Translations under genes and position numbers: made by a program
Source of the DNA: a virus
Taxonomy: Duplodnaviria; Heunggongvirae; Uroviricota; Caudoviricetes
Length of the DNA: 22,642 bases
Virus record (IMG/VR): IMGVR_UViG_2778261067_000001
Direction: 5' to 3' (one strand)
The notes under the pieces: generated by a model
What the model was told of the DNA's origin: nothing
What the model saw: the letters and a program-made list of their open reading frames with translations, nothing else
Database searches by the model: none
Part shown: in pieces, positions 18,515 to 21,822 of the stretch
How positions within the stretch are numbered: the first letter of the stretch is position 1
Layout of the letters: the number at the start of each line of letters is the position of its first letter

Positions 18515-18814
18515 TTTGTCGCTCCATGCGTTTGCTCGTCATCTAGCGGTTAAAATATTACTTCAAATCTTACTGCATAAAAGAGGAAAAGTATGAAAGT
18601 TTGAGTACATCGACCTTACATACATCTGTCGGTTGCATATCCCTCCTGGATGCCAGCAAGGCTCAATTTTGTTACGCAATCAACACTATTCATCAAAAAC
18701 AGGCTTAATATTTGACATAAATCATCAACAAAACACAAAGAGGTCAGACCAGATTGAAACAATAAACACGATAATGCTAACTACGCGCCATCGTATCACA
18801 TGGAAGGTTTACCA

Positions 18815-19225
18815 ATGGCTCAGGCTGCCATTTTTAAAGAAATATTCGATCAAGTGCGTAAAGATTTAAACTGTGAATTATTTTATTCTGAGCTAAAACG
18901 TCACAATGTCTCACTTTATATTTACTATTTAGCCACAGATAATATTCACATTGTGTTAGAAAACGACAACATAGTGTTAGTAAAAGGACTCAAAAAGGTT
19001 GTAAATGTTAAATTCTCCAGAAACAAGCATCTTATAGAGACCTCCTATAATAAGTTGAAATCAAAAGAAATCACATTTCAACAATATAGGGAAAATCTTG
19101 CTAAAGCAGGAGTTTTCCGATGGGTTACAAATATCCAGGAACACCAAAGATATTACTATGCCTTTGATAACTCATTACTATTTACTGAAAGCATCCAGAA
19201 AACTACACAGATCTTACCACGCTAA
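18815..19225 (+). CDS. ydfO: DUF1398 family protein (YdfO/YbcV-like), unknown function
   Basis: [54 protein letters not shown]...[39 protein letters not shown]; ATG at 18815 has GGAAGG 7 nt upstream (alternative ATG 18800); the only convincing plus-strand gene in the window. Confidence 0.65.
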
Positions 19226-19321
19226 ACCATAACGTCCGGCTTCTCTCACTCCTGAGCCGGACTGCATTGGTTTAATAAAAACCATCAACAATTGTGATTT
19301 AGATATTCGGAACCATTCAAA

Positions 19322-19347
19322 TATAACAAAACCCCGTAAAAACGAGG
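19322..19347 (-). terminator. Terminator-like hairpin downstream of the gnsB-like gene
   Basis: Minus-strand RNA CCUCG UUUUUA CGGGG followed by UUUUGUUAU (one G-U pair in the stem). Confidence 0.45.
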
Positions 19348-19376
19348 TTTATGGATAAATTTTATTATTGAATACA

Positions 19377-19553
19377 TCAGATTAAATTAATCTTGACATC
19401 ATAGCTTTCAAGACCCGTCATTTTTTCCCGTGCGGTAAACTGAATACTGGTAACTTCTTTCCCGGTCTTTTTCTTAAGTTCAATAATTTTTTTTGTTATA
19501 TATTCAGAAATATCTGCTTCTGCTTTTGTTTTTAAGTTTTCAATATTCATCAT
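19377..19553 (-). CDS. gnsB: GnsB-like small protein (Gns family), 58 aa
   Basis: Not in the ORF track (under 60 aa). Minus-strand translation MMNIENLKTKAEADISEYITKKIIELKKKTGKEVTSIQFTAREKMTGLESYDVKINLI; ATG preceded by AAGAGGAA; closely resembles E. coli GnsA/GnsB as I recall them (...TGKEVSEIRFTAREKMTGLESYDVKIKIM). Confidence 0.7.
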   Translation of the reverse strand: MMNIENLKTKAEADISEYITKKIIELKKKTGKEVTSIQFTAREKMTGLESYDVKINLI

Positions 19554-19721
19554 TTCCTCTTTTAGTCTGTTATGACTTTCCAGTTACACAGTAAGTCGAT
19601 TATATGGTGCAAACGTGTAAAAGATAAGATGAAACATCGCAATAATCAACATACGATAGTCTAAATTTTACACAAACAGACAAAGAGAATTTTCCTGAAT
19701 TATCAATACAATAGCATCAAA

Positions 19722-19994
19722 TCAACTCAAGAGCCTTATTGCTGCTTCCAGAATTTCTTCTGAAGTAACATGTCGATCCGCGGCTACATAAATGACTTTA
19801 TGATCTCCGGTCAGAGATGGAAACCCTGCGGCCATTACAGTAAGGTGTGTTTTTTCGCCATTTGGATATTCACGCATGATGGTGTTAACTCCAGTCATCG
19901 CTGGCACTACCACTGCTGGTTCAGAGTTAAAAAAAACTATGATTTTTTTCATGATGTTACCGTAGTATGTGAGTATCCATCGAATAGATACCAA
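19722..19994 (-). CDS. Hypothetical small protein (76-90 aa) between the cspI-like and gnsB-like genes; by synteny possibly the counterpart of Qin ynfN
   Basis: Track ORF begins at a TTG (19994) preceded by GGGAG; internal ATG at 19952 gives MKKIIVFFNSEPAVVVPAMTGVNTIMREYPNGEKTHLTVMAAGFPSLTGDHKVIYVAADRHVTSEEILEAAIRLLS. No recognised motifs; start and reality uncertain. Confidence 0.4.
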   Translation of the reverse strand: MVSIRWILTYYGNIMKKIIVFFNSEPAVVVPAMTGVNTIMREYPNGEKTHLTVMAAGFPSLTGDHKVIYVAADRHVTSEEILEAAIRLLS

Positions 19995-20016
19995 GCAAAA
20001 AAGCTCCCGAAGGAGC
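19995..20016 (-). terminator. Rho-independent terminator (GCUCC UUCG GGAGC + U6) downstream of the cspI-like gene
   Basis: Perfect 5-bp GC-rich stem with UUCG tetraloop followed by UUUUUUG on the minus strand. Confidence 0.6.
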
Positions 20017-20223
20017 CTTCATTTTCACTTTTTTAAATCCAACGACAGACGGCTGGCATTTAAGTATTGTGAAATATTATCAAATGTAATCATCATTGAT
20101 TTACAAAAGATACATTTTGCCCCGAAAGGATTCATGTCAGAAACATCAAAAGATGATGTTCTATACTGGGAACCATGACAACACGGGCATCTAAAGTGAA
20201 TATGGTTTGTAATATTGTCTACC

Positions 20224-20436
20224 TCAAAGCGCCACTACATGAACAGCGGCAGGACCTTTAGGTCCGTTCTCAATACCAAATTCAACTTCCTGATTCTCAG
20301 TTAATGTTTTGAAATCGTTGCTCTGAATTGCTGAGAAATGGACAAACACATCTTTGCTGCCATCTTTCGGCGTGATGAAACCAAAACCTTTTTCAGGGTT
20401 AAACCATTTCACTAAACCAGTCATTTTGTTAGACAT
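20224..20436 (-). CDS. cspI: Cold-shock protein, CspA family (CspI-like)
   Basis: 70-aa [73 protein letters not shown] with RNP1 (KGFGFI) and RNP2 (VFVHF) motifs. Confidence 0.92.
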
Positions 20437-20620
20437 AATTATTACCTTTTGAAGAAATTAGCCCTTGGGCAGAATGGTCCGAAAAAAAATATCAGAGAGA
20501 AAAACCAACAAGGAAATCTCAAGAGGTACAAATAATAAAATTATAACAATGACTGCTTCAGATAAATTTGTAACAAACCAGAACACCATTAACGCATGAT
20601 TAACCACCCATAGCAAGGAT
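20437..20620 (-). promoter_or_regulatory. Putative long AT-rich 5' UTR / promoter region of the cspI-like gene
   Basis: ~360-bp AT-rich non-coding gap upstream of cspI; CspA-family genes characteristically have ~150-nt regulatory leaders (established knowledge); boundaries not determinable from sequence alone. Confidence 0.35.

Positions 20621-20798: not shown

Positions 20799-21822
<1,024 letters not shown>

What the first reader, a model, noticed from the sequence alone, without database searches (positions are those of the whole stretch)
19377..19553. gnsB-like small gene missed by the six-frame ORF track
A 58-aa minus-strand ORF with a strong Shine-Dalgarno and a downstream hairpin plus T-run encodes a protein closely resembling GnsA/GnsB. 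It falls below the track's size cut-off and would be missed by length-filtered annotation. Gns-family proteins are linked in E. coli to membrane lipid unsaturation and suppression of secG/cold-sensitivity phenotypes (established knowledge, mechanism poorly understood), so together with the adjacent cspI-like gene it forms a cold-adaptation mini-cluster carried by the phage.
Basis: seen in the sequence. Interest (0 to 1): 0.4.

Follow-up and report, generated by a model that had tools for sequence, protein, structure and literature searches.

The report
Known E. coli prophage gene gnsB
The small ORF is real, but it is simply gnsB, a long-known 57-residue gene of Qin-type lambdoid prophages of E. 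coli that is already annotated in thousands of genomes, so the finding is correct and ordinary.

Summary
The ORF at 19377..19553 (-) exists as described. It is not merely gnsB-like. Protein and DNA, including 321 nt with flanks, are 100% identical to E. coli K-12 gnsB (b1550, Qin prophage). RefSeq annotates it in about 2,150 of 5,426 complete E. coli genomes and in isolated phages (Tritos, PhiR42_1). The conserved start is the second ATG (19550), which gives 57 aa rather than 58. The GAGG Shine-Dalgarno, the hairpin plus T-run and strong purifying selection (dN/dS 0.04-0.22) are confirmed. The gene lies in an AT-rich accessory-gene ("moron") block between the lysis cassette and the terminase: cspI-ynfQ-ynfR-ynfN-gnsB. 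It is therefore linked to cspI but not adjacent to it. The order csp, ymcF/ynfQ, gns held in all 15 loci fetched from Escherichia, Shigella and Citrobacter. Published work shows that overexpressed GnsB raises unsaturated fatty acids and rescues cold-sensitive mutants; the molecular target is unknown. Published RNA-seq of an LF82 lysogen shows this exact gene transcribed while the lysis genes are silent. Cold induction of gnsB itself is not shown. The RefSeq label "addiction module toxin" is doubtful for GnsB, because no conserved partner gene exists. Verdict: already known, low interest.

The parts
19377..19550 (-). gnsB coding sequence: 57 aa plus a TGA stop, starting at the second ATG
   Evidence: 100% identical to K-12 b1550. 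RefSeq coordinates in ATCC 25922, LF82 and 20KM0223N map here. Pfam PF08178 E = 3.3e-35. Matches PDB GnsA 4XO2 at E = 5e-20. dN/dS 0.04-0.22.
19551..19553 (-). Extra in-frame ATG that gives the mechanical 58-aa ORF; probably not the start
   Evidence: It lies only 2 nt after GAGG. It is replaced by ATA or ACA in the Citrobacter and gnsA-type homologues. Some gene callers do use it, for example P0002 at 58 aa.
19556..19561 (-). Shine-Dalgarno AAGAGG (core GAGG at 19559..19556), 5 nt before the start codon
   Evidence: Coordinates checked. GAGG at 5-6 nt from the start is conserved in all 16 sequences compared. The leader is unstructured, so the ribosome-binding site is open.
19599..19627 (-). 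Candidate gnsB promoter of its own: perfect -10 TATAAT (19604..19599), weak -35 TTATCT (19627..19622), 17-nt spacer
   Evidence: Read from the sequence. The TATAAT is kept in the 93% alleles L011 and L012. It did not pass the consensus scan because the -35 matches only 3 of 6. This part is inferred, not shown. Support comes from gnsB mRNA greatly exceeding ynfN mRNA in LF82.
19315..19350 (-). Intrinsic-terminator-like hairpin AAACCTCGT-TTTT-ACGGGGTTT plus a T-rich tail
   Evidence: Scan hit. Fold of -13.1 kcal/mol, z = -2.3. Every GnsB-type homologue has a hairpin plus T-run at the same place with a different sequence.
19722..19952 (-). ynfN, intact 76-aa form, 171 nt upstream of gnsB
   Evidence: RefSeq annotation. 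PHROG 3425. No Pfam hit. Not homologous to YmcE (16/106).
19957..20022 (-). ynfR, 21-aa small protein
   Evidence: RefSeq annotation. 20/21 identical to K-12 YnfR. The K-12 protein is listed as identified in PMC6001520.
20025..20213 (-). ynfQ, 62 aa, ATT start, with cysteine motifs CPCC...CIFC; paralogue of YmcF
   Evidence: Translation. Identical to K-12 YnfQ and 41/62 identical to YmcF. Present in all 15 related loci.
20224..20436 (-). cspI cold-shock protein gene
   Evidence: 70/70 identical to K-12 CspI. Pfam CSD E = 1.6e-31.
20197..20582 (-). cspA-type thermoregulator RNA (cspI 5' leader plus coding region)
   Evidence: Rfam RF01766, 112.8 bits against a gathering score of 78, E = 1.6e-28, full model 1-428.

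Best explanation
This is gnsB, the prophage-borne paralogue of the chromosomal gnsA.

Shown here: it encodes a 57-residue cytoplasmic protein, predicted as one long helix packed on a beta-hairpin, the same fold as the GnsA crystal structure. It sits as the last gene of a 30-36% GC accessory-gene ("moron") block, cspI-ynfQ-ynfR-ynfN-gnsB. The block is inserted between the lysis cassette (essD-ydfR-rrrQ-rzpQ/rzoQ) and the terminase of a Qin/Tritos-type lambdoid prophage. The gene has an open ribosome-binding site and its own terminator.

Shown in the literature for the identical sequence or protein: in an LF82 lysogen the gene is transcribed at high level while the flanking lysis and packaging genes are silent. 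When overproduced, GnsB, like GnsA, raises the share of unsaturated fatty acids (16:1 and 18:1 at the expense of 16:0). It thereby rescues mutants that fail at low temperature or when unsaturated fatty acids are short (secG null, fabA6, relA fadR).

Inferred: GnsB acts by binding and modulating a host lipid-synthesis or phospholipid-synthesis protein, not as an enzyme; at 57 aa it has no catalytic fold. In the lysogen it helps keep the membrane fluid in the cold, alongside the RNA chaperone CspI, whose mRNA carries a cold-sensing leader. It is probably transcribed from a promoter of its own (perfect -10 at 19604..19599), and also by read-through from cspI and from the phage late promoter.
For: Identity: 57/57 aa and 321/321 nt match K-12 gnsB. 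The gene is annotated in K-12 Qin, and the 1.3-kb block is present in 2,151 of 5,426 complete E. coli genomes. Pfam PF08178 E = 3.3e-35.

Coding constraint: dN/dS 0.04-0.22, length invariant.

Context: prophage late region, and the same block in phages Tritos and PhiR42_1. gnsB is 29.9% GC against 51.6% for the window. Terminator; conserved SD; open leader.

Synteny: csp, ymcF/ynfQ, gns in 15 of 15 loci from Escherichia, Shigella and Citrobacter. cspA thermoregulator on cspI.

Transcription: LF82_0907 at 1610202..1610375 (-), 174 nt, is gnsB by coordinates. It has log2 fpkm of 7.6-12.3, against about 3 for rzpQ and the lysozyme gene and 4.8-8.4 for ynfN (PMC9928086 S1 and S4 tables).

Function: plasmid-borne gnsA and gnsB both rescue relA fadR at 25 C, and gnsA restores 16:1/18:1 (bioRxiv 10.1101/2024.03.27.586906). 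Sugai et al. 2001 and 2004 are summarised in PMC10607373.
Against: The physiological role is known only from overexpression. I found no report of a phenotype for a gnsB deletion, nor of cold induction of gnsB. gnsB's own leader shows no structure that could sense temperature (z = +0.55). The AZT data for K-12 list cspI, ynfQ and ynfN as co-induced but not gnsB, so gnsB may be regulated apart from the cold-shock genes. The proposed promoter has a poor -35 and failed the consensus scan. The molecular target is unknown; PMC10607373 says so explicitly. The fold search gave no functional lead.
Confidence: 0.8

Rival explanations
1. GnsB is the toxin of a type II toxin-antitoxin (addiction) module, as its RefSeq and Pfam names say. 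The upstream gene ynfN would be its antitoxin, and the pair would stabilise the prophage or promote persistence.
For: The Pfam family is named 'GnsA/GnsB toxin of bacterial toxin-antitoxin system', and RefSeq uses 'addiction module toxin'. ymcE-gnsA is listed among E. coli type II TA pairs with reference to Wei et al. 2015 (PMC8484670). Overexpressed gnsB raised ampicillin and gentamicin persisters 10- to 100-fold or more and lowered ATP in UTI89 (bioRxiv 10.1101/310961).
Against: YnfN is unrelated to YmcE (16/106 identity). It lies 171 nt upstream rather than overlapping gnsB. The slot between ymcF/ynfQ and gns holds ynfN, ymcE or nothing (L018) in different genomes, while gns stays intact. 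ynfN is split by IS903B in one E. coli with an identical gnsB, and it is frameshifted at its 5' end in K-12. ymcE is frameshifted or stopped in 3 of 3 non-K-12 gnsA loci fetched. In LF82 gnsB mRNA exceeds ynfN mRNA by about 4- to 60-fold without harm. ASKA plasmid clones of gnsA and gnsB rescue growth rather than stop it.
Confidence: 0.08
2. The gene serves the phage rather than the lysogen. As the tail of the late operon just after the holin, endolysin and spanin genes, it would adjust membrane lipid fluidity during lytic growth, so that lysis or assembly still works at low temperature.
For: It lies directly downstream of the lysis cassette on the same strand, with no terminator-like site found on that strand between cspI and gnsB. 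It is kept in plaque-forming phages (Tritos was isolated as a plaque, PMC9928086). The known effect is on membrane lipids.
Against: The gene is expressed strongly in the uninduced lysogen while the late genes are silent, which is the signature of a host-directed moron. The paralogous module cspG-ymcF-ymcE-gnsA sits in the chromosome without any phage genes. No data link Gns proteins to lysis.
Confidence: 0.08
3. The ORF is a chance or decaying reading frame with no protein product.
For: It is short (57 aa), very AT-rich (29.9% GC) and sits in a prophage. NCBIfam has no model for it.
Against: dN/dS is 0.04-0.22 with saturated synonymous change, the length is invariant at 57 aa, and the SD is conserved. 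The paralogue has a solved structure. Gns-family peptides were detected by proteomics (PMC9927464 and PMC10178689; CFT073 GnsA). The cloned gene has phenotypes.
Confidence: 0.01

Closest known systems
GnsB (YdfY, b1550) of the cryptic prophage Qin, E. coli K-12
   Same: The protein is identical (57/57), and so are the 321 nt around the gene, including the SD, the -10 element and the terminator. The neighbours are the same: ydfO-type DUF1398 gene, ynfN, ynfR, ynfQ, cspI, rzpQ/rzoQ, rrrQ, ydfR, ess.
   Different: Here the prophage is intact on the packaging side: terminase, portal, capsid and tail genes follow, where K-12 Qin has only nohA, stfQ and tfaQ remnants. ynfN is the full 76-aa form, whereas K-12 has a 1-nt deletion that leaves 51 aa. 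YnfR differs by one residue.
GnsA (YccL, b4517) in the chromosomal cluster cspG-ymcF-ymcE-gnsA
   Different: gnsA overlaps ymcE and starts with GTG, whereas gnsB stands alone 171 nt after the unrelated ynfN. gnsA is chromosomal, next to yccM; gnsB is phage-borne.
Lambdoid prophage morons placed after the lysis genes (for example lambda bor; own knowledge)
   Same: An AT-rich accessory gene with its own terminator, lying between the lysis cassette and cos/terminase, and transcribed in the lysogen independently of the late genes.
   Different: bor and lom encode outer-membrane proteins that act on serum resistance or adhesion. GnsB is a small soluble protein that acts on lipid composition.
Type II toxin-antitoxin toxins (the label carried by PF08178 and RefSeq)
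   Same: Small size, a prophage location, and reported effects on persistence when overexpressed.
   Different: There is no conserved, overlapping partner gene. The partner slot is variable, empty or disrupted while gns persists. Overexpression rescues growth in several settings.

Membership tests
GnsA/GnsB family (Pfam PF08178) | Significant full-length match to the family profile, above the curated cut-off | tested here: met
   E = 3.3e-35, 120.2 bits against a cut-off of 27, profile positions 1-54 of 54. PHROG 2301 E = 7e-39.
GnsA/GnsB family (Pfam PF08178) | Single-domain protein of about 57 aa with the invariant C-terminal motif TGKEV..F.AR.KMTGLE..D.KI | tested here: met
   57 aa in all 16 sequences. 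The invariant columns are listed.
GnsA/GnsB family (Pfam PF08178) | The helix plus beta-hairpin fold of the GnsA crystal structure (4XO1/4XO2) | tested here: met
GnsA/GnsB family (Pfam PF08178) | Multicopy expression raises unsaturated fatty acids and suppresses secG-null and fabA6 defects | not testable with these tools
   Reported for K-12 GnsB, which is identical in sequence (Sugai et al. 2001 as cited). pCA-gnsB rescue of relA fadR at 25 C is.
Type II toxin-antitoxin module (toxin member) | A cognate antitoxin gene immediately adjacent, usually overlapping or co-translated, and conserved together with the toxin | tested here: not met
   The upstream ynfN is 171 nt away and unrelated to YmcE. 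The slot is occupied by ynfN, ymcE or nothing. ynfN is disrupted by IS903B with gnsB intact. IS1A separates the two genes in another strain. ymcE is broken in 3 gnsA loci.
Type II toxin-antitoxin module (toxin member) | Expression of the toxin alone arrests growth, and the partner neutralises it | not testable with these tools
   The literature is mixed. Plasmid clones rescue growth. Persister and ATP effects appear on arabinose induction. I could not read the GnsA-YmcE claim of Wei et al. 2015.
Prophage moron | Accessory gene inside a prophage, not part of the lytic programme, with composition unlike its surroundings | tested here: met
   It lies between rzpQ and the terminase in a lambdoid late region. 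GC is 29.9% against 51.6%. The paralogous module exists outside phages.
Prophage moron | Own promoter and terminator | tested here: inconclusive
   The terminator is present and positionally conserved. The promoter is only a perfect -10 with a weak -35, and the consensus scan did not call it.
Prophage moron | Transcribed in the lysogen while neighbouring phage genes are silent | tested here: met
   This rests on published data re-read by coordinates. LF82_0907 is gnsB, with log2 fpkm 7.6-12.3 against about 3 for the lysis genes. The LF82 sequence is identical to window 19200..20500 (H15).
CspA-type cold-shock regulon | Long structured 5' leader of the cspA thermoregulator type | tested here: not met
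   Present on cspI (RF01766, 112.8 bits) but not on gnsB, whose leader is unstructured (z = +0.55). gnsB could share cold control only by read-through from cspI.
CspA-type cold-shock regulon | mRNA or protein induced on temperature downshift | not testable with these tools
   I found no data set with gnsB at low temperature. The chromosomal gnsA mRNA was unchanged between 23 C and 37 C in CFT073.

The most novel reading that the evidence does not exclude
The invariant trio csp, ymcF/ynfQ (a cysteine-rich, probably zinc-binding small protein) and gns may be one mobile functional unit that moves between phage and chromosome. Gns would act together with the other two, not alone and not as a toxin. 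In that case the database-wide label 'addiction module toxin' is wrong for the whole family, and the phage copy exists to tune host membrane fluidity in the cold for the benefit of the lysogen or of phage lysis.
Probability: 0.15. Interest if true: 0.4.

Novelty: already known. Interest (0 to 1): 0.08.

Why it matters
As a discovery it matters little. gnsB has been named since 2001, is in every K-12 annotation, and is called automatically by RefSeq.

Three small points have practical value. First, annotation pipelines disagree on its start: products of 57, 58, 70, 82 and 88 aa are on record. Conservation settles it at 57 aa. Second, the "addiction module toxin" name that RefSeq spreads to thousands of genomes is not supported by gene context for GnsB. 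Third, a published moron table for E. coli LF82 appears to list this gene under the neighbouring name YnfN.

The open biological question is not advanced by sequence analysis. It is what a 57-residue protein binds in order to shift fatty-acid unsaturation.

Tried and rejected
- NCBIfam has no model that hits GnsB, YnfN or the 68-aa YbcW-like protein.
- PADLOC defence models gave nothing for GnsB, YnfN or YnfQ.
- The sigma-70 scan found no qualifying promoter upstream of gnsB. The -10 I report was read by eye.
- Folding the gnsB leader to look for a thermosensor or an occluded ribosome-binding site gave no structure.
- The plasmid collection gave 5 records. Three are chromosome-sized (4.8-4.9 Mb) and two are small non-mobilizable records, so gnsB is not a plasmid gene.
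I repeated it with database homologues.
- Sugai et al. 2001 (PMC95442) is not held, and Wei et al. 2015 is not in the library. Their content is cited only through papers that summarise them.
It confirmed only 15 loci, so the synteny count comes from a sample.
- The CFT073 temperature-shift supplement is cut off and did not contain the prophage gnsB.

Full report
**1. The observation.**
The window has a 58-aa ATG ORF at 19377..19553 on the minus strand, exactly as reported. It reads MMNIENLKTKAEADISEYITKKIIELKKKTGKEVTSIQFTAREKMTGLESYDVKINLI. The sequence AAGAGG lies at 19561..19556. A terminator-like hairpin, AAACCTCGT/ACGGGGTTT, lies at 19350..19329 and is followed by a T-rich tail. The hairpin region folds at -13.1 kcal/mol, z = -2.3 against shuffles. 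The ORF is below the 60-aa default of the ORF lister, so the remark about a length filter is fair for that track.

**2. What it is.**
Pfam PF08178 (GnsAB_toxin) matches end to end at E = 3.3e-35. The 1.3 kb around the ORF is 100% identical to many complete E. coli chromosomes, where RefSeq annotates gnsB, ynfN, ynfR, ynfQ/ymcF and cspI. In all, 2,151 of 5,426 genomes carry the block. Against E. coli K-12 MG1655 the protein is 57/57 identical to GnsB (b1550, cryptic prophage Qin). The 321 nt including both flanks are identical base for base. It is 37/57 identical to the chromosomal paralogue GnsA, whose crystal structure it matches at E = 5e-20 (4XO1/4XO2). So this is gnsB itself, not a gnsB-like gene.

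**3. The start codon.**
RefSeq places the gene at 19377..19550, which gives 57 aa. I compared 15 homologous loci from Escherichia, Shigella and Citrobacter.
- All encode exactly 57 aa and start with ATG or GTG at the position of the second ATG.
- All have GAGG 5-6 nt upstream of that start.
- In the 10 loci that are not of the E. coli Qin type, the preceding triplet is ATA or ACA.

In the window, GAGG is only 2 nt from the first ATG. Public gene calls vary widely, at 57, 58, 59, 70, 82, 86 and 88 aa.

**4. It is a real coding gene.**

**5. Context.**
The window is the late region of an intact lambdoid prophage, 98.4% identical over 22.6 kb to several E. coli chromosomes. All of these genes lie on the minus strand of the window except the DUF1398 gene, which is on the plus strand. 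By window coordinate the order is:
- tail genes, capsid, portal and terminase;
- a YbcW-like gene, then the DUF1398 gene, which is convergent with gnsB;
- gnsB, ynfN, ynfR, ynfQ and cspI;
- the lysis cassette rzpQ, rrrQ, ydfR and essD.

The same block is present in isolated phages: Tritos and PhiR42_1 at 100% GnsB identity, and 2H10, mEp460, HannyBb and PhiR63_1 at 93%. gnsB is 29.9% GC against 51.6% for the window. cspI carries a full-length match to the cspA thermoregulator RNA (RF01766, 112.8 bits). Three small genes separate gnsB from cspI, so the two are linked rather than adjacent.

**6. The cluster is conserved and has a chromosomal twin.**
K-12 has cspG-ymcF-ymcE-gnsA. The paralogue identities are CspI/CspG 55/70, YnfQ/YmcF 41/62 and GnsB/GnsA 37/57. 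YnfN and YmcE are unrelated (16/106). In all 15 loci fetched the order is csp, ymcF/ynfQ, a variable slot, gns. The slot holds ynfN, ymcE or nothing, the last in L018.

**7. Expression.**
Misson et al. (PMC9928086) sequenced RNA of E. coli LF82, whose prophage Tritos is 100% identical to window 19200..20500 (H15). Their locus LF82_0907 spans 1610202..1610375 on the minus strand and is 174 nt long. Those are exactly the RefSeq coordinates of gnsB and correspond to window 19377..19550.
- Its log2 fpkm values are 7.6/8.5 in overnight LB, then 10.2/9.7, 12.3/12.2, 11.2/11.3 and 10.1/9.9 in the other four conditions.
- The adjacent rzpQ and lysozyme genes are at about 3.
- The 156-nt ynfN locus is at 4.8-8.4.

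In the paper's Table 1 and S1 sheet this row is labelled YnfN. The differential-expression table (supplementary file 5) labels it GnsB, and the lengths show that the S1 labels are shifted by one row. So this exact gene is strongly and autonomously transcribed in a lysogen. An excess of roughly 4- to 60-fold over ynfN argues for a promoter of its own or a much more stable 3' transcript. A perfect TATAAT lies at 19604..19599 with a weak -35, TTATCT, 17 nt upstream. It is kept in the 93% alleles, but it did not pass the consensus scan. In K-12, AZT induces cspI, ynfQ and ynfN by near-equal factors (6.5, 5.9 and 5.8) without gnsB being listed (PMC11228462). That again suggests gnsB is a separate unit.

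**8. Function.**
This section rests on the literature for the identical protein. Overexpressed gnsA and gnsB raise unsaturated fatty acids and suppress fabA6(Ts) and the cold-sensitive secG null. gnsA also lowers phosphatidylethanolamine synthesis at low temperature. Both results are from Sugai et al. 2001 and 2004, as summarised in PMC10607373. That paper states that the molecular basis is not known. Independently, pCA-gnsA and pCA-gnsB both rescue a relA fadR mutant at 25 C, and gnsA restores 16:1 and 18:1 (bioRxiv 10.1101/2024.03.27.586906). gnsB was also reported as up-regulated in E. coli L-forms and at the onset of persister formation. Gns-family peptides are seen in proteomes. I found no report of cold induction of gnsB, and its leader is unstructured. 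The cold-adaptation reading is therefore reasonable, but for gnsB it rests on overexpression phenotypes and on linkage to csp genes.

**9. The toxin label.**
RefSeq and Pfam call the protein an addiction-module toxin, following the proposed YmcE-GnsA pair (PMC8484670 citing Wei et al. 2015). Gene context does not support this for GnsB.
- The upstream gene is unrelated to ymcE and lies 171 nt away.
- The slot is empty in one Citrobacter locus.
- ynfN is cut by IS903B in one E. coli, and IS1A sits between ynfN and gnsB in another. gnsB is identical in both.
- K-12's own ynfN has lost its first 25 codons to a 1-nt deletion.
- ymcE is frameshifted or stopped in all three non-K-12 gnsA loci fetched, while gnsA is intact.

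I rate the toxin-antitoxin reading at about 0.08.

**10. Verdict.**
Interest is low.

Noticed in passing
window 19722..19952 (-), T-run near 19925..19932: ynfN is the intact 76-aa form here. K-12 MG1655 has a 1-nt deletion in a run of eight T, which leaves only the 51-aa C-terminal ORF that K-12 annotates.
   Followed up: yes
PMC9928086 Table 1 and S1 table; LF82 chromosome 1610202..1610375 = window 19377..19550: The moron listed as 'YnfN' (LF82_0907, 27-fold above background) is gnsB by coordinates and length (174 nt). The product labels in the S1 sheet are shifted by one row relative to the coordinates.
   Followed up: yes
L020:2285-2508, L021:2290-2508, L022:2282-2508: The ymcE reading frame upstream of gnsA is frameshifted in Escherichia sp. 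E1V33 and E. whittamii. It carries an in-frame stop in E. coli SCPM-O-B-8794. gnsA is intact in all three. This raises doubt that ymcE is a conserved protein gene or an antitoxin.
   Followed up: partly
window 20025..20213 (-): ynfQ starts with ATT, so the ORF lister shows only its last 36 codons. The 62-aa product has CPCC...CIFC motifs that suggest a zinc ribbon. It is the most constant neighbour of gns genes, present in 15 of 15 loci.
   Followed up: partly
window 20197..20582 (-): A full-length match to the Rfam cspA thermoregulator covers the cspI leader and coding region (112.8 bits).
   Followed up: no
L023 (NZ_OW848980.1) and L024 (NZ_CP074012.1): There are natural IS insertions in this block: IS903B inside ynfN, and IS1A in the ynfN-gnsB spacer. 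The gnsB product is unchanged in both.
   Followed up: yes
window 20849..21121 (-), inside rzpQ (20799..21296): A 90-aa ORF in another frame of rzpQ resembles a lipoprotein (…[14 protein letters not shown]…) and lies where K-12 annotates rzoQ, the embedded Rz1-type spanin gene. RefSeq does not annotate it in the closest genome.
   Followed up: no
L009 (JAGZPX010000007.1): A 22.9-kb contig filed as a Veillonella parvula metagenome-assembled genome carries this E. coli prophage block with 100% identical proteins. This is almost certainly a binning error.
   Followed up: no
window 18800..19225 (+): A DUF1398 gene (YdfO/YbcV type) is convergent with gnsB. Its PHROG label is 'head protein' (phrog_413), and it has a weak PADLOC hit to a type II restriction enzyme model (E = 3e-4), which is probably noise.
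   Followed up: no
window 19200..20600: The cspI-gnsB block is 35.8% GC and gnsB is 29.9%, against 51.6% for the whole window. That fits a foreign insert in the late operon.
   Followed up: partly
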